Positions 16,146 through 64,000 of a stretch of DNA of 64,000 bases are shown here, one piece after another; position 1 is the stretch's first letter; each line of letters starts with the position of its first letter. The position numbers were made by a program, and so were the translations under genes. The DNA lies in IMG/VR virus record IMGVR_UViG_3300021387_000357, positions 1 through 64,000 of that record. One strand, given 5' to 3'. This DNA comes from a virus. Taxonomy: Duplodnaviria > Caudoviricetes. Under the pieces are notes generated by a model. It saw only the letters and a list, made by a program, of their open reading frames with translations, did no database searches and had not been told where the DNA came from.

Positions 16146-16781
16146 TCATTTGACAAAATTTGTCTTATAATCATATGAAAAATTTATTAACCGTAATTTA
16201 GGTATACGCCCCTCATAATAAGAAACAAATTCAATTAATCCATTGTTCATTAAAGCATCTAATCCATCTTTAATAAAAACTCTACTATTCTAACTATTTA
16301 CACTTAACCCCAAATGTTCTGCAATTTCTTTTAATGTAAAAGAATATTTAAAATTATTAATGCTTGCATATTTATATCTTTGCCCTAAATAAATATAAAT
16401 CTTAATAACATCTCCCTTAATAGTATTTTGAATAAATCTTAAAGTCTCCAATGGAATTTTAAAAAAGATAGTTTCTTTTTTAGGTAATAAATAATACTAA
16501 CCCATATCCTATACATATCCAGTATTAATTAAAATATTCAAATATTTTCTTAATGTTTTTGTTGATTTTATTTTTACAGCTTTACAAAAATCACTCTGAG
16601 AACCTATTTCAAATTTATCTACTCTAGTTTCATAATTTTTAATACCATCTTTTTCAATCATTATTGGCATTGATTTACTTTGTAAGTAAGCATATAATCT
16701 ACCATCTATATTTTTATTATTTAAAAAAGTTAATATCTCCATACTCGTATCGGCAGGGAAATGTTTTTCAATAATTGACAT
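16146..16781 (-). CDS. double winged-helix protein, replication-initiator-like (three in-frame TAG)
   Basis: ORF 16509..16781 continues through TAGs to TGA at 16146 (211 aa); HTH-like STKTLRKYLNIL and FTLKEIAEHLGLS; flanked by iteron-like repeats. Confidence 0.65.
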
Positions 16782-17126
16782 ATAAAATCCTCCTAAATAT
16801 ATTCCTTCTACATATATTTAAAATTATTTTATATAAATTAAACATTTTTACCCAAAAATTTTAAATATTTACCCAACAACCGTAGTTTTTTCCCTAACAA
16901 ACATATTTTTTTACCTAAAATTTTTACCCTTTAATAATGCGGCGATCGTAGGTATAAAGCTTCACTTAACGAGCCCCGCCGCATTTAAATTCAAAAATAC
17001 TCACGCTTGAACTTTTTATTTTTAATATCCACAGCCTTATCCAATGCCTCTCTAACATAAAAAATATAATTTTCTAAGTTTCTCATTGGCAGCATTTACA
17101 TTTTCAATAGAAAAAAGCAAATTTAA

Positions 17127-18139
17127 TTAATCATTATAAATTTCATCTTCTCCATTATCATTACCGCCCTTTTCTCCATCATTTAATATTTCATCATCAA
17201 AAACATAATAATTTTCAGCAATATCCGCAATTTTTTCAACCACCCGCATCATATCTTTTTGATTATTATTCCATTGCTTTTGAAACATCTCTTCTAAATT
17301 ATCAACCGCCTTTTTAGCACCATTTTTCAAAGTTTTTCTATAATGCGGATATTTTTTCATCATTTGTCTTCTTTCTTGTCTATTCACTTACAATCATCCT
17401 CCACAATATAATAAGGATGTATTTTATTCATAGCTTTTATAGCATCTTCAATAGACATCTATATAATAGTATCATGATTTTTCTTTAATTGTTTTTCAAT
17501 TGCAGATTCTTTTAATAAAATACTAACTAAAATCTAATGATTATTATCTAAACATTCAATAATATTATTCATTAATAACACAAAAATAAAAATAACAACA
17601 AATCCAATACCTAATAACAAATATTTCATGCGGCGTCCCCGTTTAAGAGATCTCTTCGACGGGTTTTACCTCCTCTCCATTCTCTTCTTCTATGACGTCA
17701 TGAAGCTCATTTTCCGCAACATTAATAATAACTATATTCTCTTTTTCATCTGTCTCTCTTGATAAATCCCTTTGGATATATGCGTGATTTCTTTTTACAA
17801 AAATTGTTCCGCAAGTTCCATTATCATTTATTTTTACAACTCCTCGCTTAGCGCAAAATGCCCCATCATTATAGGGGCATATTTGCACATCACATTCTAT
17901 CACTGTCATTCTTTTTCCTCAGCTAATTTCACTTTTTCTTTTGCTTTTCTTTTGTCAATTAAAACGCCCCAAATAGAGACACCATCTTCATCCTTAAATT
18001 CAGCCACACCAACAGCCGCATCAATCATATCTACCATTTTTTCAGCAGATTTTTCACTTCTATCTTTTGGATAAACTACTGCAAATAAATTATTATCTAA
18101 CATTTCCTTTATGTACTTTTCAGTTGTATTATCGTTCAT
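17127..18139 (-). CDS. small hypothetical genes (17127..17387, 17643..17909 with Cys motif, 17906..18139)
   Basis: ORF track; RBSs; overlapping stop/start. Confidence 0.6.
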
Positions 18140-18285
18140 ATGAACACTCCTTTATTTTTATTTTTCTATTTATATTATATAATAAAATTTTTGGTTTGTC
18201 CAATCTTCTCTTCCACTTATCTTCTTTTCTATTGATTTTTTAATAATTTTTTTATATAATAACAATATAAAAAGGAGAAATAATT

Positions 18286-18792
18286 ATGTGGACGATAGAT
18301 AAAATTACCAATCTTTGCATTGAATATTGCGGGAAGGCAGATGTGAAGTTCAATTCACCTGTGGTTATCAACGGAAGGCTAACTCGTACTCTTGGAAGAT
18401 GCTTCTATGAAAGAGTGGGAACTATCTGGAATCCCATAAAAATTGAAATTTCGCGGCAACTTCTTGAAACATCTACTGATGAATCTATTGAAGCGGTTAT
18501 TGCTCATGAGTGCGCCCATTATGTAGTTTGCGCACTTACGCATGAAAGTCATGGACATGATTCTACGTTTAAATATTATTGTAATATAATTGGAACTAAT
18601 AATAATATGACCCATTATGATGATCTTCAGCGTACAAAAGGTAATGAAGAGATTTATAAATACACTCTCTATTGTTCAAAGTGTGGAAAATTTGTTGGCG
18701 GAAGATCTCGTGCTTGTAATATTACTAAAAACCCTGAAAATTATTTTACAAAATGTTGTGAAGCAAAAGTTGAAGTTATAAAAAATTGGTGA
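18286..18792 (+). CDS. SprT-like zinc metalloprotease
   Basis: INGRLTRTLGR, HECAH, HGHD and C-terminal CxxC, the SprT pattern. Confidence 0.85.
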   Translation: MWTIDKITNLCIEYCGKADVKFNSPVVINGRLTRTLGRCFYERVGTIWNPIKIEISRQLLETSTDESIEAVIAHECAHYVVCALTHESHGHDSTFKYYCNIIGTNNNMTHYDDLQRTKGNEEIYKYTLYCSKCGKFVGGRSRACNITKNPENYFTKCCEAKVEVIKNW

Positions 18793-20507: not shown

Positions 20508-20512
20508 ATAGT

Positions 20513-22305: not shown

Positions 22306-22308
22306 TAA

Positions 22309-27310: not shown

Positions 27311-28105
27311 ATGTTTTGTTTAAATTATTATCCATCTTAGAAATACTTTTAGAATATAGATGAATTAAAAATTAAGTATCGCCGCGCTGACCGTACTTTA
27401 CCAGATTTTTTAGAAAAATATAAAGATAAGTCTATCGTTATTGATGTTTCAGATTCATTTGAGGATATTGATGCAACACTTTTAAAAGGACTAAGTGAAA
27501 AATATAATAATATAAAAATTATTTTTGATTTTTATAATGAAGATTTTTTAACAAGAGCAAAAAATTATAATATTCCATTCTTTTTTTTAAATCCAGTTAC
27601 AACGATAGATCAATTACATGGATTTTTAAATCATCATCCTACTGATATGTATATTTGTTAGGAGTTGGGTTTTTCATTAGATAAAATTAGTAAAATATTA
27701 CACGATCATAATATAAAAGTGCGGGTATATCCTAATATTTGTCAATCTAGTTTTTCAAAAACACCTAGTATAAAAACTTTTTTTATTAGACCAGAAGATA
27801 TTTCAGTTTATTCTGCTTTTGTTGATGTATTTGAATTAATTGCAGATGAAAAAAGACAACAAGTATTATTTAAAATTTATCAACAAGGTAAATGGTTTGG
27901 TAAAATAAAAGATTTAATTCCAACTTATAAAGGAGAATTGGATAGCAAATATATTCTTAGTTCTTTTGGTAAAATTAGATGTAAATGCGGCAAGCGGTGT
28001 ATGTATAAACCTGAAAGCTGTTCTATATGCGACAGATTTTTAGAACTTGCTGACACTCTAAAAGAGAATAATATTATAGTACGAAAAGAAAAGATTAATA
28101 ATTGA
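27311..28105 (+). CDS. peptidase U32-like / TIM-barrel phage protein (three in-frame TAG)
   Basis: ATG 27311 with AGGAG RBS; frame joins ORF 27665..28105 through TAGs; C-terminal CGKRC...CSIC. Confidence 0.6.
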
Positions 28106-32005: not shown

Positions 32006-32079
32006 GGCCCGGTAGTGGAGCGGTTTAACACAGCTGACTCTAAATCAGCGGAACCTGGGTTCGAACCCCAGTCGGGTCC
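32006..32079 (+). tRNA. amber suppressor tRNA (anticodon CTA), tRNA-Glu-like body
   Basis: GCTGA-CTCTAAA-TCAGC anticodon arm; GGCCCGG/TCGGGTC acceptor; canonical T arm. Confidence 0.9.
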
Positions 32080-33140: not shown

Positions 33141-33575
33141 ATGGCTGAAAAATATACATTAAGTGAAGTTTTTGTAAAAAATAGTCCTGTCACACAAAAA
33201 GTTTTACGAGGATATATTACTAGACACAGTGTAATTCCTTATAAATGTAAAATTTGTGGGTGTGATGGAAATTGGCAAAATGGACAAATTTCATTATAGT
33301 TGCATCATGAAGATGGTGATAATTCTAATAATGAAATTTCAAATCTTTGTTATTTATGTCCTAATTGTCATGCTCTAACAGATAATTACAGAGGAAGAAA
33401 TAAAGATATTGATAGTCAAAAATAGCCAACTGTAATTTCATAGGAATAGTTTGTTAATGCTTTAAAAATAAAACCAAATATTCGACAAGCATTAATATTC
33501 TTAGGACTTGCTCCAAAAGGAGCTAATTATACAAGAGCAAATAACTTAATTGAAAAATATGGCATCCAAAAATAA
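33141..33575 (+). CDS. intron-encoded HNH homing endonuclease (four in-frame TAG)
   Basis: CKICG...L[TAG]LHHEDGDNSNNEISNLCYLCPNCHA; AAGGAG RBS; ends TAA. Confidence 0.85.
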
Positions 33576-33895: not shown

Positions 33896-35368
33896 ATGAA
33901 AAATAAGTTTGTTTAGACAGGCCTCATTGCTTCTATGATTTCAACTATGATGCTTTCAACGGCGTTTGCCGCAAATCATTGGAGTGATGAGGACGGAACT
34001 TGGAAGTATTTTGACAAAAATAATACAGTAATTACTAATAGTTGGGCGAAGTCAGGTGAGAACTGGTATTATGTAGACGATCAAGGTAATATGCTTATTG
34101 ATACTCTATTTGAAGACGATGATAACTATTACTATTTTGATTCTACTGGTGCTATGGTTCGTAACACATGGATTAATTATGAAGATAATTGGTATTATTT
34201 TAAAGAAGATGGAAAGGCATATACGACTAAGAAAGATGAACTTACTTCATCAAATTTAAAGACTATTAATGGTCAAAAGTATGCTTTTGATTCTGAAGGA
34301 AAAATGCTTTATGGGTGGATTGATGCTTCTAGCTTGACATCTGTTGATGAAGATGATTCAGATGGATGGAAATCCGCAATGTATTATGCTGGTGAAAAAG
34401 ATGATGGAGCCATTAAAATTGGCTGGTATCAAATTGAAGTAGAAGATGATGATGAATTAAAGGATTATTGGTTTTACTTTAAACCAACAGGGAAAAAGTC
34501 TTTAGATGAAAAAAAGACTATTAATGGTTCTACATATCGCTTTGATACAGAAGATGGTCATATGTTGAGTGAATGGGCGGCAACCGCATCTTCTTCAATT
34601 GCTTCATCTAGTAATATGACTTATATGAACCCAGATGGTATAATGATTAAGAAAAAGTGGTTTTGGGCTATTCCAGATGAAGATTATATCCAAGAAGATT
34701 ATGATAATGATGAATATTCTTGGTGGTATGCTGATAATAGCGGTAAGATTGTAAAGAGTACAATTAAGAAAATTAATAATAAAAATTATGTTTTTGATGA
34801 TATGGGACGTATGCTTTATGGTCTTGTAACTTTTGAAGACGATGAATATACCAATAAATCTGGTGATACAGAGTATATTGATATGTCTAGTGACCAAATT
34901 AAGGAATTAGATTTTGAAAAACTTTATTATTTTTCAACAGAAGAAGATGGTTCTCGTAAAAATGGTACAGTAAAAATTGAACTTGCAGATGATACATACG
35001 AATTTTACTTTAAGAATAATGGCGAAGCTGAGAATGGCTATGTTTCTAAAATTAAGAAATTTGTAAAAAATGGTATTATTCTTGAAGCTAATGCAAGTGA
35101 AGGTAAGTTTGCAGGAATTGATGCTGACTACGATGGCGGCTATAAATTAAATAGTGGAACTATTTCCTATGGAAGCGATATTGCAGAGGGGCAGATCTTA
35201 GTTAGTACAAATGGATCAATCGCTAAAAATAAGAACAATGTTAATGATGGTAATGATATTTATATCTTTACTGATAAAAATGGGGTAGTCCTTTATGCTG
35301 GTGAAAAATTAAAGTCAAGAAAAGATGGTTCCATTGAAATTAAGGGAAAGACATACGAAATTGATTAA
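33896..35368 (+). CDS. secreted cell-wall-binding (choline-binding-like) repeat protein; TAG at codon 7
   Basis: GGAGAG RBS before ATG 33896; signal peptide; repeated W..W.Y.F..G units typical of Lachnospiraceae surface proteins. Confidence 0.8.
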
Positions 35369-46300: not shown

Positions 46301-46480
46301 GCTATATTAAAAACAGACCAAAATTTTGCTTTAATTGTTCAAAAATTATATGAAGCATCAAAAAATAGATATATCTACTATCATAATAATTGGTATTTAT
46401 TTACGCCAGACAATGATGTATTATGTCCAATAGATGGAATAGTTAATTATTGTTGTGAAATCGTGAAAGGAGTGTATTAA
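43310..46480 (+). CDS. large virion/baseplate-associated protein (~1056 aa, multiple in-frame TAG)
   Basis: ORFs 43310, 44405, 45290 and 46244 share one frame and, where read, are separated only by TAG. Confidence 0.75.
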
Positions 46481-46482
46481 TT

Positions 46483-48516
46483 ATGACACATAACTTTCCA
46501 TATTTAAAAGATATTAATTTTTTAAAATTATTTGATTAGACTAAATTAAAATAGCAATTTGTAAAACTAATAGTTTTAAATTTTAAAGAAATGCCAATAA
46601 CTGAAATTCAAGGAAAAGTAATAAGCGGGAATCTTAATTTAGACGGGTCTTCTGGAATGAGAAGGACTGGTAATATTACTTTAGTAGCGGATGAATATTA
46701 GAATGATCTGACAGATACTAAACATTTATTATCAATTAATAAAAAAATTTAGTTATTAATTGGTTTTACTAATACAACAAAATAGTATTCTGATTTTCCT
46801 ATACTATGGTTTCCACAAGGAATTTTTGTTATTACTGCACCAAATATTTCACATGGAATGGGCGGGATTAATATATCTTTAACATTACATGATAAAATGG
46901 CTTTGTTAAATGGAGAATGCGGCGGGACTCTTCCCGCCTCAGTCATTTTTCATTAGGTTGAAGATATAGATGAAAAAGGATAGATTTATATACGACAGCC
47001 AACAATATATCAAATAATTCAAGAATTAGTTAATCATTTTGGCGGATAGCAGTTGGGGAAAATTATTATTAGTGATATAGATAATAAAATTAAAAAAGTA
47101 ATGAAATGGACTGGTTCTACTCCATTGTATTTATACCAGAGCCTAGATAAAAGTAATGGACAGCTTTTAAATCATTTTAGCACTAATTATAATGAAGCAA
47201 AAGAAGGTTCTGGTACTATACAAGAATTTTCATATGGAGAAGATGTTGGATATATTTTAACAGATTTTACATATCCTGGTGAATTAGTTAGTAATGCAGG
47301 AGACACTGTTGTTACAATATTAGATCAAATTAAAAATGTTCTTGGTAATTATGAATATTTTTATGACATAGATGGTAATTTTAGATTTCAAGAAATTAAA
47401 AATTATTTAAACACATCATATTCCACTTTTAAAATTAATGAAATAAATGAAAATAATTATTTAGTTGATTATACAAGTGGAAAATCTGTATATACTTTTA
47501 CTGATGCAAATATAATTACTGCATTTTCAAATTCTCCTCAATATCAGCAAATAAAAAATGATTTTATTATTTGGGGAAAAAGGCAAACAACAGATGGCAA
47601 ATAGGTTCCTATTAGGTATCATTTGGCCATTGATAAAAAACCGTAGATAGGAAATGAATATAAGGTATTCTTTTTTACAGATCCGGATGATGGAATAGTA
47701 AAAGCAAAAAAACCTGTAGAATTTGATAATAGAGAAAGTTTCCCAACAAAAGGATAGGTTGGTAATTATTATCTTGCGGCAGATACTGCAATTATTTATA
47801 AATGGGCGTCTGATGTTCATAAGTTTGAACAAACCTCCTACACTATTTAGACAATAAAAACAACCGATTATAGAACTGAATTATATATGGCAGGAGTTGC
47901 TAGTTAGCCTTTTGGATTGAATAGTAATTATTATTATACTGAATTAAAAAATTAGTGGCCTAAATTATATAATGTGAGGGGGTCAAATCCAGGTTTTTTT
48001 GAAGAAAATATCTTACAACCAAGTAATATTGATTTCTTTTTAGATTTTATTGATACTAATTCTGCTTTAGAAGAATTTAATATTAATAATATTGGAAGAA
48101 GAACTGTTGTTTTAAATGATGATAAAATTAATTGTATTTTTTAGCCAAATAATCCAGATATAGTGATTATATAGGCTGGAACCTTAGATACAGATACAAT
48201 TAGAGAAGAATGTGAAAATAGAAAACAAGAATATGTACAAGTTAGATCTTAGTTATATTCTCTTTTAATGAATGGTGGTTTTTTAAGATCTGCTTATGAA
48301 TAGATGAGAAAAGAATTATATCAATATACCAATTATAATTAGCAAGTTTCTTTAACTACCTTACCGATATATTATCTTGAACCAAATGTAAGAATTACAA
48401 TTCGAGATGTTGAATGTGGTATTTATGGAGATTATATGATAAAATCTTTTTCTATTCCATTAGATGTAAATGGAACAATGTCTATTTCTTGTACAAAAGC
48501 ATTAGAAAGAATTTAA
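46483..48516 (+). CDS. baseplate hub/tail-associated protein (~677 aa, multiple in-frame TAG)
   Basis: In frame with ORF 47053; LDGSSGMRRT, WFPQG, YFYDIDGNFRFQEIKNY, LPIYYLEPNVRI motifs. Confidence 0.75.
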
Positions 48517-48539
48517 GAGTTAAAAGGAGAGCAATAAAT

Positions 48540-49238
48540 ATGTATCAAATTGGACAATTTAGAAAATCTCAAATGGATTCTTATTCGACTCCTTTACAAA
48601 TGACAATGGGATAGCAAGAAACAACCATTTCTTCTGAAGGAGATGTTATTTTTTATAATATATGTGGGAATTTAATAGGCGATAATGTCGTTAATAGTCA
48701 AAATTCTTATTATTTACGTTTTGGAGTTAGACAAAGAACCGATTCTGAACAAAGATTTTATTTAAAATTAAGAAATATTACTGAAATAGAAGATAATGAA
48801 CAGTTGTTAGAAGAATTTGTTGTTCCTAGCGGAGTTTCTATAATATATTTTGAAATAGTATTTACGCCTAATTCTACTTACAATCAAATACTTTGGGAAT
48901 TACAAAGAACTATTTTAGATTATCAAATGTTAAATACAAATAATAATCATTATGGTAGAGTAATGAATGTTGAAATACAAAGCTTTACTAGATTAATAGA
49001 TGTTATGACCACATTAAAAAATCTTTATCCTAATATGAATTATTTAAGTAAAATCGGGATTCAAGGCCCACCATCTATGTTAATGTGTATAAATGGAGAA
49101 CAGATAAGAATAGGAAAAAGCGGTATTTACGAAATTAATAATGGAATAATTAAAATTATTTCTATTAGTTTTGTTCCTAAATAGTCAACTCTTTCTTCAA
49201 ATCAAACAGATTATTTTATTATGGATTTTGAATATTAA
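48540..49238 (+). CDS. putative virion protein (in-frame TAG)
   Basis: AGGAG RBS; in frame with ORF 48804; ends TAA. Confidence 0.7.
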
Positions 49239-49255
49239 TTAGAGGAGGATTAAGA

Positions 49256-51109
49256 ATGTATTCTTTTTATGGCGGACAACCAGGTAATTCTTTTATAATT
49301 ATTACAACATATAGAAGTATTGCTGATATGGTTGCTAAATTTAAATTAGGATCAGAATATACCGCAGTTCATTTTGATTAGCATGTAATGATTAATACTG
49401 TTAATAAAAATGATCCAGATAATGGTAAAATATATAGACGCGGTTACGATTTTAATAATGATATGGGTGGAGCCGAATTTGTAGGTACTATAGTGGGTCC
49501 CGCAGGAAAAGCTCCAATGATAGAAATGACAACAATAGCAGATGTAAAAAGAAAACAATCATCTTAGGGTTATAGCTAGCGGCGTTCATCTGGAAGCTAT
49601 TCTGTATCTGAAAACAATCTAGTTCCTGGTAAAAAAACTGATGGAACTTTTAATGACGCAATTACATGGGAATGTTGCTCTATAAGAAATCAAAATAATG
49701 AAGATACTACTGCATATGTTGGTTTTACTTTTCCATATACTGTAATTGATGTAGAAGCAAAAACTGTATAGCCATATTCCAGTGGTAGATATGCTGATAT
49801 GAGCGGCGCCACCCGCATTGATGATTATAAACATCCCTTTTATGAGAAATGGCGATTAGATATTCCGAATGGAGTAAAAGGAGATAGTTTTAAAAATTTA
49901 AAAATTCAAGTTGCAGATTCTACTATTGAAGAATATTAGGGTCAAGCAGATGATATAAATAATAATCGTGAAGTTTTAGTATATGAATATTATAATTATG
50001 AAACTTTAAAGAGCGGAAATCCAAAAAAAATTTATTTAGGTGATTATAATAATATTGATAATATTTCTATGTCTTAGGATGGAACTATTACTATTGAATA
50101 TAGTCATGATAATGATAAAATTTTTAATAAAACTATAAAATGGATTGATGATATCGCTGTTGCAAATGATGGTACATTAACTATTTCTTGGAACAATGGA
50201 ACAGCTGATACTGTTTTTAATAAAAAAATAAAATGGATAACATCAGTTGTAATGTCTTCTAGTGGAAATGTTTCTGTAAATTATAATACCGATTAGAGTT
50301 TTATAATTGGACAAGTAAAATGGATTCATTCAATTGAATTAAACAGCGATGGTACTTTAGCAATTAATTATAATACTGGAGAAAGACAACTTATTGAAGA
50401 TCATAAAATTAAATGGATTGATAGTGCTCAATTAACAAATGGTCATGTGCTTATTTTTACATATAATGATGCAACTTCAGATACTTTTAACTTAATTCTT
50501 CCAAATAATGTAACTATAAATACAGGAACATTGTAGGGAGAAGGAACTCAAAAAGTAAGAGTATCTTGGACTAATGGAGAATATGCAGAAATTGGTAATC
50601 CTATTAATTATATTATGTAGGCAGCTGTTAATGATAATGAGCATTTACTGGTTCGATATTCAGATCCTGTAAGAAGAGCTTTAAGTACAACAGTGAACTG
50701 GGATGGAAAATCAGGCTGGACAGATATTGGTAGTTTAAAAGTTCCATATATATATGGAGATCCTGCGGCAACTAATTTAAAATGGTCTGGTATGGGGATG
50801 ATAACCGATTCTGAAACAGGACATTTAAGTGTTGTTTTTACAATGCCATTAACTCAATTATTAGATCAAAATATTACCGCGGTTAACATTACCAATGGTA
50901 GATTATATGTTGATTCTCAAAGTAGTATTCATGATTTAAATAATTTTGTAATGAATTCTACAAATACCACAGTAACTAAAACATTAAGTGGTTTAGAATT
51001 TCAAGTTCAAACAGAATATGAAAACTCAGGTGGCGCTTCAATAGAAATTGCAACAATTTTTATAAATCAATTAAGTTTATCATTCGTAAGACCTATAGGG
51101 GAGGGGTAA
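49256..51109 (+). CDS. putative tail protein with internal IKWI...DGT repeats (in-frame TAG)
   Basis: GAGGAGG RBS; in frame with ORF 50693. Confidence 0.7.
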
Positions 51110-51112
51110 TAA

Positions 51113-51433
51113 ATGACTAATGGTTATTTTGGAGTGATACAGGGTCCATTTATTGCAAACGAAGAAATTCTTACAAAAATTCAAGAACAGTGTTTATATT
51201 AGATAGATTATATTTCTAAAATAGGAATTATATATAATGGAGATTTAAATTTAGATGTGAATAACACTGTTTCTCCAAAAATTATAGTTATTATAAATGA
51301 CATATAGTTTCAAATTGGAAAAACAAAAATATTAGAATTAGAAGATACAGAAATTAATTCTATAAAATTTAAAGAAAACACTGATGATAAAATTTATATT
51401 GATTATCAATATTAGAAAATTAGTAATGAATAA
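51113..51433 (+). CDS. putative virion protein, resembles C-terminus of 48540 gene (three in-frame TAG)
   Basis: GGAGGGG RBS; SKIGI...IN...IGK motif shared with 48540. Confidence 0.65.
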
Positions 51434-51613: not shown

Positions 51614-54022
51614 TTAATCATCAATATACTTTTTCATATGACTAAAAGCTTCTGGATATGAAACAATTTCAATCCCATGATTAATAATATATTGAATTAA
51701 ATTATTAAAACTTGGATACCCTACTTGATAACCATTTTCATCTAATGAAGTATCCCATTCTTCCGTGCCCCAGGCATTAAAATGCGTACACAGAACAAGC
51801 ACTCCGTTTCCGCCTTCTTTTACATATATATCAATGAGACTCTTAACAGCATCCAATCTAGAATACTGATCACCTTCAGGATCATAAGCTTGACGCATAA
51901 TTCTGTATTTATCAATATGCTCATAGTTGTTATAATACCTATCGGAGGTAGTTATAACACTATCAAAATTAAAGAAACGACCTAACTTTTCTGTTCTTGC
52001 TTCTTTTCTACCGCCAGGAACCACCCAATGGTTTGAAGAAAGTAATCCATTTGTCTTCATAAAACGAATGGCTTTTGTTAAGTCTTTTCTTTGTTCATCT
52101 ATATTAGGACCAGTCGGTCTCCAATAACTATTATTCTGATTTGAACAATGTAACAACATGCCAAACCCATCGCCTTCATATTCTAATAACTTGTTAATGT
52201 CAACATTATTATCCTCTATATGTTGTGTCATTACGGCATAATTTCCCACAACTCCATTATGCTTACAAGCATTATAAAATCTATCAACATATTCGTTCCT
52301 GGAGGTATCGTCATCTATTATAGTGCATATATATCTGTCATATATTGGTGCTTTTGATTTTCTTTTATCAACTCGATATAATTTTATATTAGAAATACTT
52401 CCGTTAACCGTTGACAAATGATTAATCTTAATCCTCATATAGAATCCAACGGTAGTTATTGGAACGTTAAAAACAAATGGCTTGTGATTGATAAACAATG
52501 TAGAAGACCCATTTTCAAAAAAGCAGCCAATTTCAAATAATATATTATCATCGCTAGAATCAAAAATTATTTTATAAGCTTGACCCGGAATTAACCAGTC
52601 TGGAATCGTTGTCTGTTCATAATATAAGTTAGTAAGTGCATTGGAAGTGGTTGTTCCAGTCACAACACATTCTGAATTATCTTCGTTCCACGTAAAGGTT
52701 ATACCATTAACGGTTCTTGAAATATATGTAATATTATCCATATCAACATATGTTTCATTAGTTCTAAATAACTGTATAGTGATAATATCGTCAAAAACGA
52801 TTTCGTGAGCTATTATATACAATCGCATATTAATACCAGTAACAGATTCATCAACGCTGAAATCAAAGTCACTATATGAATTAATATATTCAATGGTATC
52901 TCCCCTATAAAGATACAATCTGCATACTATTTTGAAGTTGGCATTGTCAAAACGCACATGGTATTTTTTGTTTCGCTCAATCCAACTAGGCACCATTTCT
53001 GGGCTATAAATAATGTTTTTAAAAGACTGAGATGCCTATTGCGAAAGCGTACCATTTACTTTCCATATACCATTTTTTCTATACGTGTATGTAATGCCTT
53101 GCAATTCTGAACTATCCGTAACTCCAAATGCATCTAACAAATCCGTCCCTAACAACGTAAAATTATTTGTAACGCTTTCATTAAGAGTATCAATTTCATT
53201 AGCTAATTCAACATTTGTTTTAGCATTCAAAACTGCGATATTATTAACAACCACATTGACAGTATTGTTCGGATTAACTATAAACCGTATAATCATCCCT
53301 GTACAATTATCGGGAATATTCAATTTGCCATCAGCTTTAAATATTACTTCTCTACCGCCAGTCGATGCACCGTCAAAATATAATAAAAATACCAATGAAA
53401 CAATACGATTATCACTTATATAGCATTTTACTCTATAACTATTACCGGGTTCAATTCCTTCTGGTAATTTATTATAATTTACGTAGAGATTGTAGTTTGC
53501 TCGACTGCTTCCAGTTGTACCGACGACGGAGCATTCTGTTTTATCTGAATTCCAAGTAAAACTTACTCCTCCCGTTGTTTTATCAGTATATGTTACATTC
53601 TTCCTAAATAAATCCATAGGATTAAATTGGGAAAGATTATTTAAATCTTTCTTTAAATCAGTAATATTATCACCAACAACCTTACTATCCGCAGCAGAAC
53701 CACTTATAGTCAGACTCTAATCAACTGTCACCGCACTTCCAACAGGATTAACATTATTACTTAACCAATTAGTTACATCTATGCTAATCTGACTAGCTAT
53801 ATAACTATTCAAATCCGCAATATTTAATTTTCTATTATCTAATAAAGTAATTTGACTTTGAATAGATCCATTAGTATCTAAATCAACCTACCCAATTATA
53901 TCTACTATTGAATTAGAAGATGTCTCATCCCAAACAACATTTTCTGCTAATACTTGGACAGGTATATCGTCAGAATAAGTACCATCATCTTGTTTAATTC
54001 TAATACTTGTTAATTTATTCAT
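51614..54022 (-). CDS. tail fibre/spike with C-terminal polysaccharide-deacetylase-like domain (~802 aa, in-frame TAG)
   Basis: ATG 54022; ORFs 53036 and 51614 joined via TAG; TIIDDD...LLHC...WVVPGG NodB-like motifs. Confidence 0.7.
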
Positions 54023-54195
54023 TTATGTTTTTTCCTTTCTGATAAGGGATATTTTAATAATTTGATGATATTTTAAATATCCCTTATCTTTTTATATTTT
54101 CTAAGGAGGGAAATTTATTTAAAAATAATTTATAGAAAATAATAAACTATAAATATTTTTTATTTATTTTTACATGTTTCATTTAAAATGTACAT

Positions 54196-54345
54196 TTATT
54201 TAGTTTTAATTTTTAAACCAGTGATAATGTACCTATCACCATTGGTATCGTAAAAAATACCGTCATCTTTTACTGCCATTACAAACACGATCCCCATTTC
54301 CTTCAGAATTTCTTCTAACTTTTTTAAATTCTCGTTTGTAATCAT
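54196..54345 (-). CDS. small hypothetical protein
   Basis: AAAAGG RBS before MITNENL. Confidence 0.5.
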   Translation of the reverse strand: MITNENLKKLEEILKEMGIVFVMAVKDDGIFYDTNGDRYIITGLKIKTK

Positions 54346-54358
54346 GATTATACCTTTT

Positions 54359-56884
54359 TTATACCATCGGATTAAATACATCTCCATTGTATGTATAACA
54401 CTCCGTAAATTTCAATGTAGTATTCCCAGATTGAGTTACTGTATCTTCTACCTCACTATACATAGAGCATCCGCTAAATGTAATAGTTTTTGAATTAGTA
54501 ATGGTCATCGCTATAGCACGACCGAATTGGCAGTTTGCAAAACGGATTGCTGTACTTGCATCAATGATGATACTACCAAAGTGTATCTGCATACCTGTAA
54601 ATATTTCTCCATTCCCCGCGTTTAACAATTTAATGGCAATACCTGCGTTTGCCGTTCCATCTGCACCTGCGCTATGATTGATAGTGCAATTTGCAAACGA
54701 TCCATGTGAATTATTGGGAGATTTATTTCCTGTATTATCAATCATCACACCGATACGATTAGCTGAAAAATCACAGTTAGCAAAATTATTATTACCGCCA
54801 TTGTCGATACAACCATAGTAACATTCCTGAATAACACAATTTGAAATGCGATGGAATTCTGAGTAGTACGCTATATTCAGTCCGGCACTGCATCCGGCTA
54901 TCTCACAGTCTGAAATCAGCATATGAGTTGACATCGTAAGACCCGTTCCACTACATAACACACCACTTCCTGAGAAATTCTCAATAGTGCAGTTAATAAT
55001 GCGCCCTCTATACTGCGTAGTGCCATCAGACTGCCCGGAAATTTTCGTTCCTTCCCAGATAATACCATTCCTTGTACCTATCTCAGATTGATCTTTATAG
55101 TTTGTACTACCGCCCCTGATACGTAAATGCATTACCGTTGAGTATGACTTAAGTTTAACCGTATATCCATTAGTTACAGATTCGTTTAATGTCAGCGTGG
55201 TCTTGTTTCCGCACCCCGTCAGCAATCCATATGCCGGGATCTCTATACCTGTTACTACAAAATTGCCAGGACCAAGCTTGCAGACCCCTGTGGTATTAAG
55301 CATCGTCTGAATGTCCCCAGTGCGATCGGTATTATCATTTGTGGATGCCAGATAGTTGTTTGTGTCTGTGGTGATAGTAGGGGAACAGGTAATGTTATAG
55401 GTATTCTCGTAATGATTCGTTTCGTAGGTATTGTTGTATGTCGTGCCATTGACAGACATCCAGAACTGCGCACCATCTGAAATTCTGCGTATACCAACAT
55501 AAAACTAACTGTATGATGGGCATACAAGGTATAAAATGCTGTAAATCCTGATTAACTGATAAGTTACATTATCATGCCATGTTATATCCTGTATATCAAT
55601 AGCGTCCTTGAATTTTTTTGACAGTCCTGAATAAACGCAAAATTCTGTCATATCAATAAACGGATCAAATGTGACATCATCAGTAAAAAATGTAACTAAC
55701 GGCTTTCCTGGTTCAATATCACTGTTCGGTCGTGCATTAAGCAGAGCCATGTCTGATACAACTGCCGGAGTAACGGTAAGATCAGTTCCAGATTTAGTGA
55801 CAATAGATAGATTCAACCGTACAGCATTTGATGGTATTTTAATTGCTGTATCAACTTTCACCGAATTCTACTGAACTATATTAGACCCAGCATCATAGAA
55901 CAGATAGCGCAAATATACATTGTCATTGGTTGTCTTACATCGTGCAAAGTAAATCTAACCAGGCACAAGATATGACGGTAGACTTTCATTATAAAGCAAC
56001 CTGACGCTTGTGCTTGTTGCCAATCCGCTTGCAATGCAGATGTTACCACTCCAATTATATGTAATTCCATTATGACTTGTACTGCCTGTGACATGGTTAA
56101 ACCAATCACGGCACATATCATATACGTTAAAACGTACCAGATCATCTCTAGTAATCGTATTAAGGTTGCTAACTATAGTAATGGTACAGTTATAATCTGA
56201 AACAGCCATATCAACAACATCGTCTTTTCTGCATATAATAGTCAAATATCCATCTTGTGGGACTGTATAAATCGCATTAACTTTTCCTTTTGTCTTCCAC
56301 CCTGATGTAACAAATCCTGTTGACCCGGAGTTTTCGGTTTTCGGTACTCCAAAGTATACGTCCAAAGTCGGATTGGTATAGTAAATCTGCATCCCTTGTT
56401 TTACAGGGATCATGTTCATTAGTCTGATACGCTTTGTATTTGCAGATTTAGTCGTATAACTCCATGACCCAGACTCAAACATACTTACATCAAACTCAAA
56501 ATTACCAGTGTTCACAAATGATTCAGTTACACTTAATTGGTTTTTTAAATTTATATTTTCATTATCTAATCTATTTTTTAAAATATTATATATTGTACCA
56601 TTAGATCCGACTCGTGCATCAATTACTTCAGTATCCTAAGTAGCAGCAGCAATAATATTATTAAATCTGGTCTATAAACTATTAACACTAGCCTGTGTAG
56701 CTTTAGTATTTACTAAATTAATTATTTGATCTTGAATGGATGTTGAAATATCAACTTCCCCTAGCACATCAACAAGAGTATGAGAAGCATCCCAATCAAC
56801 ATTTTCTGCCAAAACATTAATTGGTATTTCATCACCATATGATCCATCATCTCTTTTTATTTTTATAGCATATAATCTATCCAT
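54359..56884 (-). CDS. tail fibre/spike with C-terminal right-handed beta-helix (pectate-lyase-like) domain (~841 aa, in-frame TAG)
   Basis: ORFs 56672, 55955, 55505 and 54359 join in one frame via TAGs; N-terminus paralogous to 54022 gene. Confidence 0.75.
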
Positions 56885-56978: not shown

Positions 56979-57293
56979 TTAAATATTGCCTAATTTTGTA
57001 AAAATCTTATTTGTAATATAAACAATTTCTTCCCCATAAGTAGAAATTAAATCAGCAACTAATTCTTCTTGCTCAAGAGAAAGACTAACATTATAAGAAA
57101 ACATTGCGGCATGTGTAATTTCATGACACAAAACTTTCTTCAACAAATTTCCTTGAAGATTTTCATTAATATAAATTGTTCTAGTTAAATTATCACACGC
57201 ACCTATAGAGTACTAACCATTTAGCCTTTGTAACAAAGGAAAATCTGGTGCTACAAAGGCTAATTTCCAATACACATTGTTAATTAAAAACAT
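56979..57293 (-). CDS. small HExxH zinc-metallopeptidase-like protein (one in-frame TAG)
   Basis: KKVLCHEITHA; TAATG overlap with upstream gene. Confidence 0.7.
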
Positions 57294-60076
57294 TAGGCTA
57301 TTTTACTAGCAAGTGTAGTCATCTTCTGATGAAGAGTAGCTCTTTCCTCAGGAGATGCATCCTTAATCATTTCAGTAATATCTGTTGACAATTCTTGTAA
57401 ATATGCTTCTAATTCACGAAGTTGCGAATTAGGATCATTATGCATTTCTTTACCTTCCATATACATGCGGCGTCTCATTGGACTTCTACCTTCGCGGGGA
57501 TCCCGCCACATGTCACTAGGCATCTCAGTATAATAATTTGTGCCACCGCGGTTTCCGCCAGAACTAGAATTTGAGCCAGAACCAGAGTTACTACCATTAC
57601 CACCACCATAATACATATACCCATTATTTCTTTCCATTTCTCTATATGGATCAGTATACATCATTCTATTATAATTCATTGGTGTGGTGTAATAATTAAT
57701 ATTGGTTTCACTCTTATTTTCTTCTTTACTTTTTTCCATTGACTCAGTAATGGTACCATAATAAATAGCTTCAGCCAAATCTTTAATCATATCAACGGCT
57801 TCACTAAGTTCATGTGAATCGGCTTTAGAGATATCCCCAAGTTGTCCCTGAACACAGCTTGTCAATTGATCTTTCATCATTTTTAAAGTTTCTGTTGCCA
57901 TAATTCCTTATCCTCCTTAAGCTATTCTGTTTACTGATAATTCAGCATTACGTCTTATTTGAATAGACGGAGTTGGTGTTGTAGCTGCATCATCTTCAGT
58001 TCCATCCACGTATGTGGCAGATATAGTTACGCAGCATCCGCAAGGAACAGTAACAAAAGCTGTGGTATTAACATGCCAGTATTCTTCCGCCGCAGTAGGT
58101 GTTATTATTGCAACACTTTCTGGTATTACAGCACCATTAATAGTAATACCAACTGCAATTGGGGTCACAGCTCCGCCAGCAGGGATTTGAATATTTCCCT
58201 GAAGAGTAACTTCATATCTTGCAAAACGATTAGAGGTATTGCCATTTAAGTTAAGAATTCCAGGAGCAAGGGGAATAACATTCCCCTTGTTGCACGGAAT
58301 AGAAACACTATTAAATGGAATTGTACCATTTAATGCTACTAACGCATCTGTTGTTGTTACATAACTAGCCATAAGCGTGCCTCCTTATCAGTTATAGAAC
58401 GCGTTATTTCCGCATCCACAACCGCCATTATTGCAGGTAAAAATTGGAGTTCTACCATAAACAGGAGTAGAAGGAACTGGGCAATTGCTTAAACGATTGT
58501 AGAGTTGATCGACTTCATTAGAAAATCCTTGCTGAATGAAGGCATTTTGTGCAGTTTGAGATGCTGCAAGATCTTTCATAGCGATTTTCTGGCGAAGATT
58601 TGCAATAAGTTCATTCTTAGCATCAAGCTTATCCTGGCAAAGTTGGTCTTTAATAGACTGAATACCGCCATTAATAGTGTTAAGTAATGCCTGAGTATTA
58701 GCAACGCCCTGTGCGGTAACGTCTCTAAGAGCACCTTCTACAGCAGCTCTATCAGCACAGGCTTCAGTGGCAACAGTATACTTCAAATCAGCAACTGACG
58801 CACGATTTTCGCAGCAACAGTTCTGCTGATTCATTGCAAGAGTATTAAGTTGATTAGAAAGACCAGTTTGTAAACCAAATAATTGATTCATATTAGCAAA
58901 CTGACGTCCATTTTCAGCGATTTCTGCCTGAGCAAAGCCGTTTGCAACTCCTGCAAAACCTGAACAAAGAGCGCTATTAACACCAGCAAAACCATTAGTA
59001 ACTGCACCAGTAATAGCACCAAGGTCACTCATAATAGCTTGCTGGTCAAATCCATGCTGCACTTCGCTAGTAGTATTGAAAACATAAGGCACGAAACCGC
59101 CGCCTCCATTACCACCACCATTACCGCCATTGTTCCAGCCGTTATTATTACCCCAACCGCCTATTAAAATTATAATAAGAAGAAGGATAAGACCGCCATC
59201 GCCAAGGCCGCCCCAGTTACCATTATTACCGCCATTTCCAGTAGCTGCTGCAATATCTGCTAAAGAATAACCATTATTATTATTAAACATTATAAAATCT
59301 CCTCTTACTTTCCAAAAAGATAGTGATATTTACAAGTTACTTACATAAATTGGTTCCTAAGATTTGCTAATTCCTTATCAAAGTCCAAACCTCTTTGCGC
59401 CGCAAGATTACGTCCTAACATCTATAACCCAGATATATTACCCTTTTGAGCCATTTGTAAAGCATTATTGATAATAGGATTATTTTGACCTCTTTGCTGT
59501 AAAATACTCATCAAAAGTTGTTGTGGATTGCTCCCGCCTTTTATCATTTGAACTAATTGCATTGGATTTACATTATTCATAATAAATCTCCTTTAATTAA
59601 AAAGTCATCGGAGCTTTTGTTTCAGAATTATTCTGGGCTTGTTGCTCTTGCACGGGGTGTATCGCTGCCACCAGTGTTTGAATTGTTTTATTAAATTCCT
59701 CTTTTGTTACATATTCAGTAGAAGAATCATAAGGATTTTCATCTTTAACAAAAGCATAAGTCTTAAAAGCTGCGGTTCCATCATTATTAATCTGCTTAGT
59801 ATAAATTTTGCCATTACCTAAATCAGTAAACACCCAAAGAGAACCGTCTAAATCAATCTGACAAGCTCTAGCTTCATCTTTTGATGAAACTGGTCTACAT
59901 TTGATGTATTGACGAGATAACAAATCTTGAGAATTCATTCGTTGATTTCCCATATAATTGTCATATGGAATGTTGTTACTCAATAACATGTTATTGTTCC
60001 CATAGGGAGTTTGCATTTGCGGCTGTTGCCATTGAGGCTGCTGCAAACCTAGATTAGGATTATTGTAATTTGCCAT
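57293..60076 (-). CDS. conserved Clostridia-phage gene block: 57293..57901, 57917..58372 (BclA C-terminal-like), 58388..59290 (Gly/Asn-rich, CCCENR), 59341..59580 (one TAG), 59597..60076
   Basis: ORF track plus TAG read-through; GGAGG RBSs. Confidence 0.75.
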
Positions 60077-60281: not shown

Positions 60282-60770
60282 ATGAAAGTTTTATCATTAG
60301 ATTTATCAACAAAATCAACTGGCTATTGTATTGGTTAGAATTAGATTATCATATCACATGGATGTGTTACCGCCAGTTCAAAAGATGTAATGAAACGTAT
60401 TATAAAAATGAGAAATGAATTATCTAAAATAATTAAAGAAAATAAAATATAGAAAATTATTATGTAGTAGGTGCGGCCAGATTTTAATTCACATACTGGT
60501 AAAATATTAATGTGGTTGCAAGGTATAGTAACAATGGCCGCATATGAAATTAATTCAACAATAGAATGGGATTTTATTGGGGCTTCAACATGGCGGGCAG
60601 CCCTTAAAATTAAACAAGGCCGCGGTATAAAAAGAGATGATCTCAAACCGCAAGATATATAGTATGTAAAAAATAAATACAATATTATAGTAAATGATGA
60701 TGAGGCTGATGCTATATGTATATTTGATGCTTATAATGAAAAATTTAATAATGAGATAAATTGGGAATAA
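60282..60770 (+). CDS. RuvC-like Holliday junction resolvase (six in-frame TAG)
   Basis: LSLDLSTKSTG (first Asp), KIIM[TAG][TAG]VRP (catalytic Glu position), DDEADAI (last Asps); sigmaA promoter and AAGGAG RBS. Confidence 0.85.
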
Positions 60771-60806
60771 AAAATAGGGATAGATTAATTCTATCCCTAT
60801 TTTTCT
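60771..60806. terminator. bidirectional terminator
   Basis: AAAAATAGGGATAGA-TTAAT-TCTATCCCTATTTTT. Confidence 0.8.
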
Positions 60807-60914
60807 TCTTTATCCTATTTTCGTACTTGAGCATTTATATAATTAATATAGCTTTTTTCAACATCAGAATAAATATCTTTTATAATATAATATATAACAA
60901 TTGGAGGCAATTCT

Positions 60915-62330
60915 TTAGAGTTTAATAATATAGTGATCTATTTTTTTAACTTCTCTGCTGTCAATGAAATCGTTTCCATTTACAATCCTCTTTTCTTCTC
61001 TTTTCTTAAATAATTGATAAAAATCTCTTAATCCTTTTTCTATTTCAAATTTTCTAAAATCAATACTGTATTCATCGCACCAAATATCAATTTCACAATT
61101 TTTTAACGTATTACATAATGGTTTATAAAAACAACTTTTACACTCTTCTTTTAATGGTGTTTTCTCTGCCCATTTGTTTATTTCATCTAAATCATAAGGA
61201 GTTTTATTAATATTTAAAGTATAATATCCATCATATGGATGATGCTCACATGTACTAATATATCCATTTGGTGCAACAACAATACTAACACCGTCATCCG
61301 CCATGCAATGAGTTCTTTTTATCCCTCTTTGTAAATGGATTTCTTTATTTAAATAATTAATCATTTCTTTATAATTTTCAAAAATTTTTTTACGATCTTC
61401 CTTTTTATTATTAGCTGAATTAAAATTAATTAAATCATAAATAGGAGAAGAATAAATTGAAAAATTAATATTTTTACCAAATTTATTTATTAAAAAATCA
61501 GCTAACTCTTTTTGCTAATTTACATTATTATAATCCAAATTCATTCTTATAACAACTTTTATATGATTTTTTAATAAGAAACTAATATTATTAACAATAG
61601 TTAAAAAAGGATTTTCTTCCTTTTTTATATTTTTATAGTTTTTAATTTTATTATATGCTTCTTCATATCCATCTATTGTAATTTGAAAAGTTTTTACATT
61701 CCATTTTTTTAAATCCTATTTAGAAAGATTTTTTATTAAATATCCATTAGATAAGAAAATAGATTGATATTTAATATTATTTTTATTTAACTGATCACAC
61801 ATATAATTAATAATTTTAGTATTTAAAAGAGGTTCTCCACCAAACCACCTTAGTTTTAAAGGAGACTATATTCTACCGCCTTTTCCACTTATAAAAAATT
61901 TTATTAAATCATCTATGACTTCAGTTGTCATAAACTAAGTTTTTATACCTTTTTCATAACAATAGTAACATTGAGCATTACATGCGGTTGTGGTTAATAA
62001 AGTACATGTTTTTATTCTATTAAATCTTTTTTTTGGGAAACGTCGTTTTAACTCCTGTATTGATAAATAATATAAAGAATAATCATCTATCTAAATTGGA
62101 ATTTTATACCAAGACTCTACTAATATTTTCTATATTTCTGAATTAAACTAATTATACTATATATTTGTTAATACTATAATTTCACCAGTCCAAAGATTAT
62201 ATATAATATATTCATCATCTTGTTCTATTGTATAAATATATTTTAACCATTTATATTTTTTAGTTGAATCATATTGTTGTTTTAAAATCGTCCTATCCAT
62301 TGTTGTATAACTATTTTTTATAACTTTCAT
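60915..62330 (-). CDS. radical SAM/SPASM-domain protein (in-frame TAG)
   Basis: CNAQCYYC, WFGGEPLL, QITIDG, C-terminal C..C....C..C...C cluster; GGAG RBS before ATG 62330. Confidence 0.85.
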
Positions 62331-62346
62331 AATTTAATCTCCAAAA

Positions 62347-64000
62347 TTACCAACCAGGTCCATAACATTCAGTATCACAACTGCATTCCCATTCATCACA
62401 CTCTGATGGTGGAGTATAATCACATCCGCCACACTCCCATTGACCACACTATTCATCACAGTCCTACTAACATTGGCCACCACATTCTGTATCTATATCA
62501 GAAATAGCTTCCCAAATATTTTTAAATTCTTGAGCAATAGAACCGCCATCATTGTCATAATTATTAAAACCACTTCTATTAATATTAATTAAATCCATAG
62601 AATAAAGTGCACGTCCAAACACCTGTCCGCTACCATTCACAACAAAATCATAATCAAACGGATCATCACTTTCTCCCTATCCATCACTACTAAACCACAT
62701 CCACCATTCATCTGAATCATTTAATTTTGCAGAAATTGCCATAGAAGGATCTTCACTTTCATTAGCTAAAATATTTCTATGATAATTATCACTAATAACA
62801 AAATCACCTAAATTAATTTCTTTACTAGTAACATTAAAAAAGTTTTGACTACCAATGTTAATAGAAAAATTATCGCCATCATATCTTAAATAATTTCTTG
62901 ATGATGATGTAAAATCAAATTTACCATCTGCTCCTAAAAAAGCACCTGCATTACTACTTGCAAAAGCATTTTTATTAACAGTATGTAAAGAATTTGCCTC
63001 AATAGTCCATCCGCCTATTGTACCTGCAGTAGATTTTATACTACCATCAGAATAGACTTTAAATAAATTATTAATATTAAATCTTAAAGATTTTCCGTCC
63101 TATGTATGTTTTTCATTTGCATATAAAATACTTTTATTGTCATTGCTTGAGAATGAATCAGTATTAATTTTCCATCCAGCTATTGTTGAAGTTCCACCAG
63201 GAATCAACTTAATTTGTCCCTAACCTGCTCTACCAAAGGTGGCATTGCCAGTATCTGCATCTAAATAAATACTAGTAGCACCTTTTGAAAAACCAAGTAA
63301 ACCATTATATGTAGTTGCATTACCGCTATTTAATTTTACAGCACCCATTACAATCCCTGTAAATCTATTGTTGCTGTCTTTAACTCCAGCCCCCATTTGA
63401 GGAGCTAAAATATATCCACCTTCTTCGTTAATTTGAACACTATTACCATCCCAAGCATTTAAACTGGCTAAACCATAACGGTTCAATAAAAAATGAATTG
63501 GAACACTTAATCTACCAATAATAACTCCTTTTTGTGTATATACACAAGTAACCGCATTATTAATACACTATCCATCATATTTAGAATTAGGTTTATATTT
63601 CCATTGATTTTTATTTAATTCTTTTCTATATGCTTCACTTGATAACAAAATTAATAAATTAGAATTAATTAAATCACCAGCCTTATTTCTTTTTACATTC
63701 CCGCATGATCCTGGCGTATAACTAATAGAATGACTTCCATTAACTAAAGAAACATCTTCCCAAACATTATTAATTTTTTCTTTACAGATAAATTCAAAAG
63801 GATGGGAATTATCATACTGCGGTGACGTACCATCTGGCGTATATATAACATATCTAAAACCAGTATAATCTGCTAAAAATACTCTAAAATTACTATTATA
63901 TGTCCATGCTGTTGTAACAGGAATGGTTCCATAATATGTTTTATTTTCATATGTAATACTACATTTAATAGTATTAGCTAAAGGCGTATTTAATGCACTA
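62347..64000 (-). CDS. 3' part of large tail protein ending in a Cys/acid-rich tail (partial; in-frame TAG)
   Basis: In frame with ORF 63220; LNRYGLASLNAWDG, GTIGGWTI motifs; C-terminus CGGQC**DCDE*CGQWECGGCD... Confidence 0.7.

What the first reader, a model, noticed from the sequence alone, without database searches (positions are those of the whole stretch)
16146..62520. TAG appears reassigned to glutamate, not glutamine
Seen: about 20 genes are interrupted only by TAG, while the intact genes checked end in TAA/TGA. Positions favour Glu. (1) RuvC-like 60282 has KIIM[TAG][TAG]VRP where RuvC needs its catalytic Glu, and there is no other Glu there. (2) Internal paralogs align DIIG[TAG]VD (54022 gene) with DVLG-E(GAA)-VD (56884 gene). 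(3) Acidic tail CGGQC[TAG][TAG]DCDE[TAG]C. (4) From recollection of family patterns, YDLIA[TAG]FNGKL, L[TAG]LHH.DG, YIC[TAG]ELGF and GL[TAG]MLGRNL usually have E. Established: recoded gut phages (Lak, crAss-like) are described with TAG=Gln (code 15) or TGA=Trp; UAR=Glu is known from some ciliates and Blastocrithidia. I know of no phage with TAG=Glu, so this may be a new phage genetic code.
Basis: partly seen in the sequence, partly recalled or inferred. Interest (0 to 1): 0.95.

Follow-up and report, generated by a model that had tools for sequence, protein, structure and literature searches.

The report
Phage reads TAG as glutamate
This gut/rumen-type phage uses the stop codon TAG inside its structural and lysis genes as a codon for glutamate rather than the glutamine reported for other TAG-recoding phages, and one base pair in its own suppressor tRNA probably decides which of the two amino acids goes in.

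Summary
Confirmed by comparative sequence evidence; no proteomics. The window comes from an 82.8-kb partial phage genome distantly related to Phass-1. It has 99 in-frame TAGs in 19 genes (165 in 21 genes genome-wide), on both strands, and none in 27 other genes counted. All 12 TAGs at strongly conserved columns fall on Glu columns; none of 36 conserved-Gln columns carries TAG. The same pipeline calls Gln for sister phages and Trp for TGA-recoded ones. Independent assemblies share the TAG sites, so sequencing error is unlikely. All six near-complete Glu-type genomes carry such a suppressor; no GluRS or release factor was found. No Glu-type suppressor has U1-A72, whereas three of four well-called Gln-type ones do, including one 59/73 identical to a Glu-type suppressor. 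Inferred mechanism: host GluRS charges the suppressor with Glu, and GatCAB converts it to Gln only when U1-A72 is present. About 20 contigs in two clades share the code. I found no published phage with TAG=Glu; this scan noted it before on other genomes.

The parts
32006..32079 (+). Amber suppressor tRNA (anticodon CUA): G1-C72, G2.U71, U11-A24, 5-nt variable loop, C73, CCA not encoded. Proposed Glu acceptor.
   Evidence: ARAGORN; Rfam RF00005, 57.7 bits; one base different from the copies in G001, G002 and L186
31553..31625 (+). Phage tRNA-Glu(UUC); shares G1-C72, G2.U71 and U11-A24 with the suppressor
40441..40735 (+). Two tRNA-Gln genes (UUG, CUG) with U1-A72, G73 and C11-G24, unlike the suppressor
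16146..16781 (-). HTH-like protein, 3 in-frame TAG
27311..28105 (+). Conserved unknown protein, 3 TAG (site 117 is E in 3 of 4 non-TAG relatives)
33141..33575 (+). HNH endonuclease, 4 TAG
33896..35368 (+). Choline-binding-repeat protein, 1 TAG at codon 7 (the start codon is uncertain)
39291..39713 (+). PD-(D/E)XK endonuclease (PF11645), TAG at codons 17 and 40 (E in 117/120; D/E in 118/120 homologues)
42803..43276 (+). Membrane protein heading the late operon, 5 TAG
43310..46480 (+). Probable virion protein, 1056 aa, 13 TAG
46483..48516 (+). Tail/baseplate-hub-like protein, 677 aa, 19 TAG (sites 24, 189 and 620 are E or TAG in all aligned relatives)
48537..51433 (+). Three further late-operon genes with 2, 9 and 3 TAG
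51614..56884 (-). Two paralogous probable tail-fibre-like genes with 3 and 5 TAG; the TAG at codon 45 of one aligns to GAA of the other
56979..57293 (-). Small conserved protein, 1 TAG
59341..59580 (-). Small conserved protein, 1 TAG
60282..60770 (+). RuvC-like Holliday junction resolvase, 6 TAG; the conserved acidic EE motif (codons 62-63) is TAG TAG
   Evidence: RuvC model 21.2 bits with E, 17.4 with Q
60785..62330 (-). Radical SAM/SPASM gene (8 TAG) and a small downstream ORF (4 TAG)
62347..64000 (-). 3' part of a 1382-aa probable tail protein (18 TAG, 7 inside the window); upstream, outside the window, is the 2884-aa tape-measure-like gene with 53 TAG

Best explanation
This is a phage of the Phass-1-related, Agate-like group that has reassigned TAG to glutamate. 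(Shown by alignment) TAG behaves as a third Glu codon, mainly in structural, lysis and nuclease genes; most early-region genes have none and end in TAA or TGA. (Shown) The phage encodes a conserved CUA tRNA with tRNA-Glu-like acceptor and D stems, and no GluRS or release factor was found. (Inferred) The host uses the standard code. Once the phage tRNA is made, a host GluRS charges it with Glu; a non-discriminating GluRS, which tolerates a change at anticodon position 36, would fit best. Because the tRNA lacks U1-A72, host GatCAB does not amidate it and Glu is delivered at UAG in competition with RF1. Sister phages whose suppressor has U1-A72 get Gln by the same route. (Inferred, by analogy with published recoded phages) Readthrough delays late proteins until the suppressor has accumulated.
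For: Residues opposite window TAG in 59 related loci: E 44%, D 9%, TAG 8%, K 8%, Q under 4%. This resembles GAA columns (E 58%) and not CAA columns (Q 50%). Against non-TAG relatives, lnL is -47 for E and -94 for Q, with Glu fraction 0.95 (CI 0.75-1.0); the controls G023, G038 and G039 come out as Q. At strongly conserved columns the window gives 12 E and 0 Q; five Glu-type genomes give 147 E and 0 Q. Nuclease and RuvC motifs agree. A suppressor is present in 6 of 6 near-complete Glu-type genomes and absent from the three standard-code and one TGA genome read in full. With the anticodon masked, 7 of 10 Glu-type suppressor sequences are nearest to tRNA-Glu. Prediction test: G049 has a U1-A72 suppressor 59/73 identical to the C1-G72 suppressor of Glu-type G010, and reads TAG as Gln (46 Q against 1 E). 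GatCAB needs U1-A72 (PMC2811023, PMC9976931). No GluRS or release factor was found.
Against: There is no peptide or aminoacylation data. The window's own suppressor scores Asp 30.0 against Glu 28.4 in the classifier. It has nucleotide 47, an unusual C73, and lacks U34 and C36, which are E. coli GluRS determinants (PMC9976931). The host and its GluRS, GlnRS and GatCAB set are unknown. Gln-type G038 has a G1.U72 suppressor (with G73), so U1-A72 is not the only route to Gln. At weakly conserved columns three Glu-type genomes show a 10-15% Gln-like component. G051 and G058 have 2 and 1 TAG at conserved-Gln columns.
Confidence: 0.92

Rival explanations
1. TAG is read mostly as Glu with a minority of Gln (ambiguous decoding through partial amidation or some GlnRS charging), or the Glu code arose from an earlier Gln code when the suppressor lost U1-A72.
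For: With the two nearest relatives, window TAG faces CAA 10 of 93 times, against 4 of 256 for GAA. The mixture fit gives 0.85-0.90 Glu with CI below 1 in G001, G018 and G021. Homologous suppressor bodies occur in both Glu- and Gln-type phages.
Against: No TAG falls on any conserved-Gln column in five Glu-type genomes, about 420 columns in all. TAG and CAG differ by one transition, which can explain extra Glu/Gln exchange at tolerant sites. The deep tree is unstable, so no order of events can be read from it.
Confidence: 0.12
2. Ordinary code 15 (TAG=Gln).
For: All published TAG-recoded phages that I could read are Gln (10.1101/2021.08.26.457843, PMC9523058, PMC10607447). A public gene call translates a 97%-identical copy of the 39291 gene with TAG=Q, but that is a pipeline default.
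Against: lnL is 47 units worse than Glu. It would place Gln at the RuvC acidic motif and at columns that are Glu in all relatives. The same pipeline does detect true Gln phages.
Confidence: 0.03
3. Sequencing or assembly artefact (GAG read as TAG), or decayed pseudogenes.
Against: 550 GAA codons in the same genes show no conversion to TAA, and 82 GAG codons in other genes are untouched. TAG genes lie on both strands. Independent assemblies share sites: 35 of 93 with L001/L002, both sites in Logan contig L180, and the RuvC double TAG in five other loci. A conserved suppressor tRNA is present.
Confidence: 0.01
4. The host bacterium itself reads TAG as Glu and the phage merely follows the host code.
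For: Unchecked notes of this scan describe gut Clostridia with in-frame TAG possibly read as Glu. A few genes outside the late operons carry TAG (16146, 27311).
Against: Most early and replication genes are TAG-free, and the phage carries its own conserved suppressor. A GTDB pattern scan found such tRNAs in tRNA arrays of four MAG contigs; the two read in full are 140-kb phage genomes of this family. This rival concerns the host only and is compatible with TAG=Glu.
Confidence: 0.07

Closest known systems
TAG-to-Gln (genetic code 15) phages: crAss-like, Lak, Agate and others (Borges et al., 10.1101/2021.08.26.457843; MS validation in PMC9523058)
   Same: In-frame TAG concentrated in structural and lysis genes, phage-encoded CUA suppressor, presumed standard-code host, usually no phage synthetase; standard, TGA and TAG codes mixed within one clade.
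   Different: The amino acid is Glu and the suppressor lacks U1-A72. Borges et al. state that they observed only TAG-to-Gln and TGA-to-Trp in phages whose code differs from the host's.
phAss-1 and the proposed 'Phassvirus' group (PMC10607447; GenBank OQ749652)
   Same: Homologous baseplate-hub-like gene (32% identity over 99%); about 135-kb genomes, large tRNA arrays, amber suppressors, no synthetase.
   Different: Distant, so not shown to be the same genus; phAss-1 is reported as TAG=Gln.
Eukaryotic codes with UAG or UAR = Glu (NCBI tables 30 and 31; from my own knowledge, not tested here)
   Same: UAG read as Glu.
   Different: Nuclear and genome-wide, with TAA also reassigned. Here TAA and TGA stay stops and only part of a phage genome uses the change.
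Indirect Gln-tRNA pathway (non-discriminating GluRS plus GatCAB; PMC2811023, PMC9976931)
   Same: U1-A72 against G1-C72 decides whether Glu-tRNA is amidated.
   Different: Here the same switch is proposed to set the meaning of a recoded stop codon; this is inferred, not shown.

Membership tests
Stop-codon-recoded phages | Coding density rises by more than 10% with the stop read as sense | tested here: met
   0.45 to 0.72
Stop-codon-recoded phages | Recoded codon concentrated in structural and lysis genes | tested here: met
   replication genes of G001 are mostly TAG-free, with a few exceptions
Stop-codon-recoded phages | Phage-encoded suppressor tRNA for that codon | tested here: met
   32006-32079
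Stop-codon-recoded phages | Host uses the standard code | not testable with these tools
   Host not identified; inferred from TAG-free early genes
Genetic code 15 phages | TAG aligns to Gln columns | tested here: not met
   12 E and 0 Q; none of 36 conserved-Gln columns carries TAG
Genetic code 15 phages | Suppressor with Gln identity (U1-A72, G73) | tested here: not met
   G1-C72 and C73
Bacterial tRNA-Glu identity set (E. coli rules) | G1-C72, U11-A24, U35, A37 | tested here: met
   Sequence; rules from PMC9976931
Bacterial tRNA-Glu identity set (E. coli rules) | U34, C36, U2-A71, absence of nucleotide 47 | tested here: not met
   Anticodon CUA; G2.U71 as in the phage's own tRNA-Glu; 5-nt variable loop, although several sister suppressors have 4 nt
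Bacterial tRNA-Glu identity set (E. coli rules) | Charged with Glu by GluRS | not testable with these tools
   Needs an aminoacylation assay
Agate clade (Borges et al.) | Placement in the Agate terminase clade | not tested
   Reference genomes not on hand; size of 130-145 kb and the mix of standard, TGA and TAG codes resemble it
Phassvirus genus | High nucleotide identity and synteny with phAss-1 | tested here: inconclusive
   Only one protein compared, at 32% identity; nucleotide identity not computed; probably family-level kinship only
Pyrrolysine system (ARAGORN label tRNA-Pyl) | TAG decoded as Pyl at specific sites by a tRNA-Pyl with PylRS | tested here: not met
   Canonical cloverleaf matching RF00005; TAG columns are Glu; PylRS itself not searched

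The most novel reading that the evidence does not exclude
A widespread rumen phage code in which TAG means Glu while TAA and TGA remain stops. Within this one phage family the first base pair of a shared suppressor tRNA toggles TAG between Glu and Gln through host GatCAB, so an already recoded codon can change its amino acid by a small tRNA change or a tRNA swap between phages.
Probability: 0.6. Interest if true: 0.95.

Novelty: new variant of a known kind. Interest (0 to 1): 0.87.

Why it matters
It would add a third amino-acid outcome for stop recoding in phages of standard-code hosts, beyond Gln and Trp, and I know of no NCBI table that matches it. Pipelines that default to code 15 mistranslate these proteins, conserved acidic motifs included; a public gene call already does so. 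One phage family holds four codes (standard, TGA=Trp, TAG=Gln, TAG=Glu) with homologous suppressor tRNAs, which makes a directly testable natural experiment on how a codon acquires or changes meaning. It also supplies natural bacterial Glu-inserting amber suppressors.

Tried and rejected
A PDB sequence search for the RuvC-like protein gave nothing useful, so the catalytic role of the Glu rests on profile matches and general knowledge of RuvC. Pfam scores with E against Q were uninformative for most genes. Folding the tRNA did not recover the cloverleaf and is not evidence either way. BLAST of the suppressor against isolated phages found no close match. The suppressors of phAss-1 and of G024, G031, G045, G047 and G048 were not located. 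Eight loci first used as 'standard' references turned out to be TGA=Trp; they carry essentially no in-frame TAG, so the inference stands. A single origin of the Glu code is weakly rejected (p-AU 0.03, simple model), and the deep branching differs between gene sets, so no order of events is claimed. Pyl, Tyr, Lys, Ser and Asp were rejected by column likelihoods. Literature searches found no TAG=Glu phage; the library lacks most subscription papers.
Full report
Setting. The window is bases 1-64000 of an 82,767-base viral record, about 62% complete, 31% G+C, with 21 tRNA calls. Relatives in IMG/VR are phages of up to 130-155 kb. I read many of their sample numbers as rumen metagenomes from memory; one related contig is labelled ruminal. 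The nearest named record is Phage Phass-1 (32% identity on the 46483 protein); Enterococcus, Enterocloster and Thomasclavelia phages are weaker matches. The host is unknown and probably a Firmicute (inference).

Observation. Reading TAG as sense raises ORF coverage from 0.45 to 0.72. Nineteen genes in the window hold 99 in-frame TAG and the whole record holds 165 in 21 genes. In these genes TAG is used at 15 per 1000 codons, more than GAG (6.5) or CAG (5.9). In widely conserved genes the TAGs lie inside regions aligned to homologues, and genes end in TAA or TGA. Most early-region genes have no TAG. In the 99%-complete relative G001, most large replication genes and the probable capsid and tail-tube genes are TAG-free, with a few exceptions (gene identities from position and size, not tested).

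Which amino acid. I searched with TAG translated as Q so as to bias against the claim. In 59 loci, well-aligned residues opposite window TAG were E 44%, D 9%, TAG 8%, K 8% and Q under 4%. GAA columns gave E 58% and CAA columns gave Q 50%. Using only relatives without TAG recoding as reference, the window's TAG columns gave lnL -47 for E, -81 for D and -94 for Q, with a Glu fraction of 0.95 (CI 0.75-1.0). The same script called Q for G023, G038 and G039, and an equivalent tally gave W for TGA in eight other loci. At columns conserved in at least 80% of six or more genomes, window TAG fell on E 12 times of 12 and on none of 36 Q columns. Over five Glu-type genomes the count is 147 E and 0 Q. Two single genes agree. 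In the PD-(D/E)XK nuclease, TAG 17 is E in 117 of 120 homologues and TAG 40 is D or E in 118 of 120. The RuvC double TAG is EE in nearly all relatives without TAG, and the RuvC model scores 21.2 bits with E against 17.4 with Q.

Artefact. A G>T error would turn GAA into TAA more often than GAG into TAG, yet 550 GAA codons sit in full-length frames. TAG genes are on both strands. Independent assemblies share sites: 35 of 93 aligned with L001 and L002, both sites in a Logan contig 412/423 identical, and the RuvC double TAG in five other loci. Raw reads were not available.

Machinery. A tRNA with anticodon CUA lies at 32006-32079 and differs by one base from copies in three other assemblies whose flanks differ. 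It has G1-C72, G2.U71 and U11-A24 like the phage tRNA-Glu, whereas both phage tRNA-Gln genes have U1-A72 and G73. All six near-complete Glu-type genomes have a CUA tRNA; the three standard-code genomes and the TGA genome read in full have none. With anticodons masked, 7 of 10 Glu-type suppressor sequences were nearest to tRNA-Glu, in a classifier that recovered 17 of 17 true tRNA-Glu with no false Glu call. The window's own suppressor came out Asp 30.0 against Glu 28.4, so its origin from tRNA-Glu is likely but not shown. In L181, L182 and L184 the suppressor follows tRNA-Glu(UUC) and tRNA-Glu(CUC) in the array. No GluRS-family gene was found in 18 relatives (the window's own record was not in that search), and no release factor in 19 records.

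Mechanism and a test. Bacterial GatCAB amidates Glu-tRNA with U1-A72 and disfavours G1-C72 (PMC2811023; PMC9976931). This predicts that a suppressor with U1-A72 gives Gln and one without gives Glu. A pattern scan turned up a U1-A72 suppressor on a 142-kb phage contig binned in a MAG (G049). I fetched it, and its TAG falls on Q 46 times and on E once at conserved columns. Its suppressor is 59/73 identical to the C1-G72 suppressor of Glu-type G010. G051 and G058, whose suppressors lack U1-A72, read as Glu (22 and 23 E). Across about ten distinct Glu-type suppressors none has U1-A72. Of four well-called Gln-type genomes, three have it (G023, G039, G049). G038 is the exception, with G1.U72 and G73, perhaps charged by a GlnRS. 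The sample is small and related, so this is suggestive only. Charging by GluRS despite C34 and A36 is inferred; a non-discriminating GluRS would make it easier.

Distribution. About 20 contigs show TAG=Glu, a few of them on very few sites. They form two supported groups, the window's group (19 rows, SH-aLRT 100) and G030 with G058. A single origin is weakly rejected (p-AU 0.03) but the deep topology is unstable. G058's suppressor is nearly identical to those of G009, G019 and G021 in the other group, which suggests tRNA exchange between phages.

Residual doubt. At weakly conserved columns three Glu-type genomes show a 10-15% Gln-like share, and the window's TAG exchanges with CAA more often than GAA does among near relatives. 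The single transition between TAG and CAG explains this most simply, but minor ambiguity or a Gln past is not excluded.

Comparison and novelty. Borges et al. (10.1101/2021.08.26.457843) report only TAG-to-Gln and TGA-to-Trp for phages whose code differs from the host's; phAss-1 is reported as Gln; current tools assume code 15, and a public gene call translates a near-identical gene with Q. My searches found no TAG=Glu phage. Notes of this scan report the same on other genomes and a Glu-like suppressor on this genome; I treated these as leads, not support. Verdict: a real and well-supported new variant of phage stop-codon recoding; confidence about 0.92 for Glu and about 0.6 for the base-pair switch.

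Noticed in passing
window 41058-42545 (+): DUF2828 + DUF7788 protein directly after the tRNA array, TAG-free, with homologues in 13 genomes; other notes of the scan call it Ro60/TROVE-like with upstream ncRNA repeats.
   Followed up: partly
window 60915-62484 (-): Radical SAM/SPASM gene resembling peptide maturases (TIGR04463, below cut-off) just downstream of a probable tail protein that ends in a Cys-rich acidic tail.
   Followed up: partly
window 7120, 10116, 11822, 26837 (+): Three, probably four, paralogous 110-135 aa ORFs (three begin MTKREMF), with homologues in 10-11 related genomes.
   Followed up: no
window 31758-31830 (+): Asp/Glu-like tRNA with an 8-nt anticodon loop (ATCA), also seen in L186; possibly degenerate.
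   Followed up: no
L189 (G049:C2, 142 kb) and L190 (G051:C44, 140 kb): TAG-recoded phage genomes of this family are binned inside GTDB MAGs (Anaeroplasmatales, Endomicrobiaceae) and could be mistaken for recoded bacteria.
   Followed up: yes
L027, L030-L032, L035, L038, L039, L052: Members of the same family read TGA as Trp, so the family holds four genetic codes.
   Followed up: partly
L053, L055: Few in-frame TAGs; two align to Ser and one to Glu, so the meaning is unresolved.
   Followed up: no
G021 90222-90296 (L023, L064): An AT-rich tRNA-like gene with anticodon UUA (ochre) near the amber suppressor; probably degenerate.
   Followed up: no
G023, G024, G031, G039, G049: tRNA-Ser with the unusual anticodon ACU was seen in several TAG=Gln members and in none of the other full genomes listed; G023 and G039 suppressors have long variable arms.
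   Followed up: no
G030: Eight TAGs at conserved Asp columns besides 50 at Glu columns.
   Followed up: no
G050 (L207) and G052 (L196): More distant phages, each with two adjacent CUA suppressors.
   Followed up: partly
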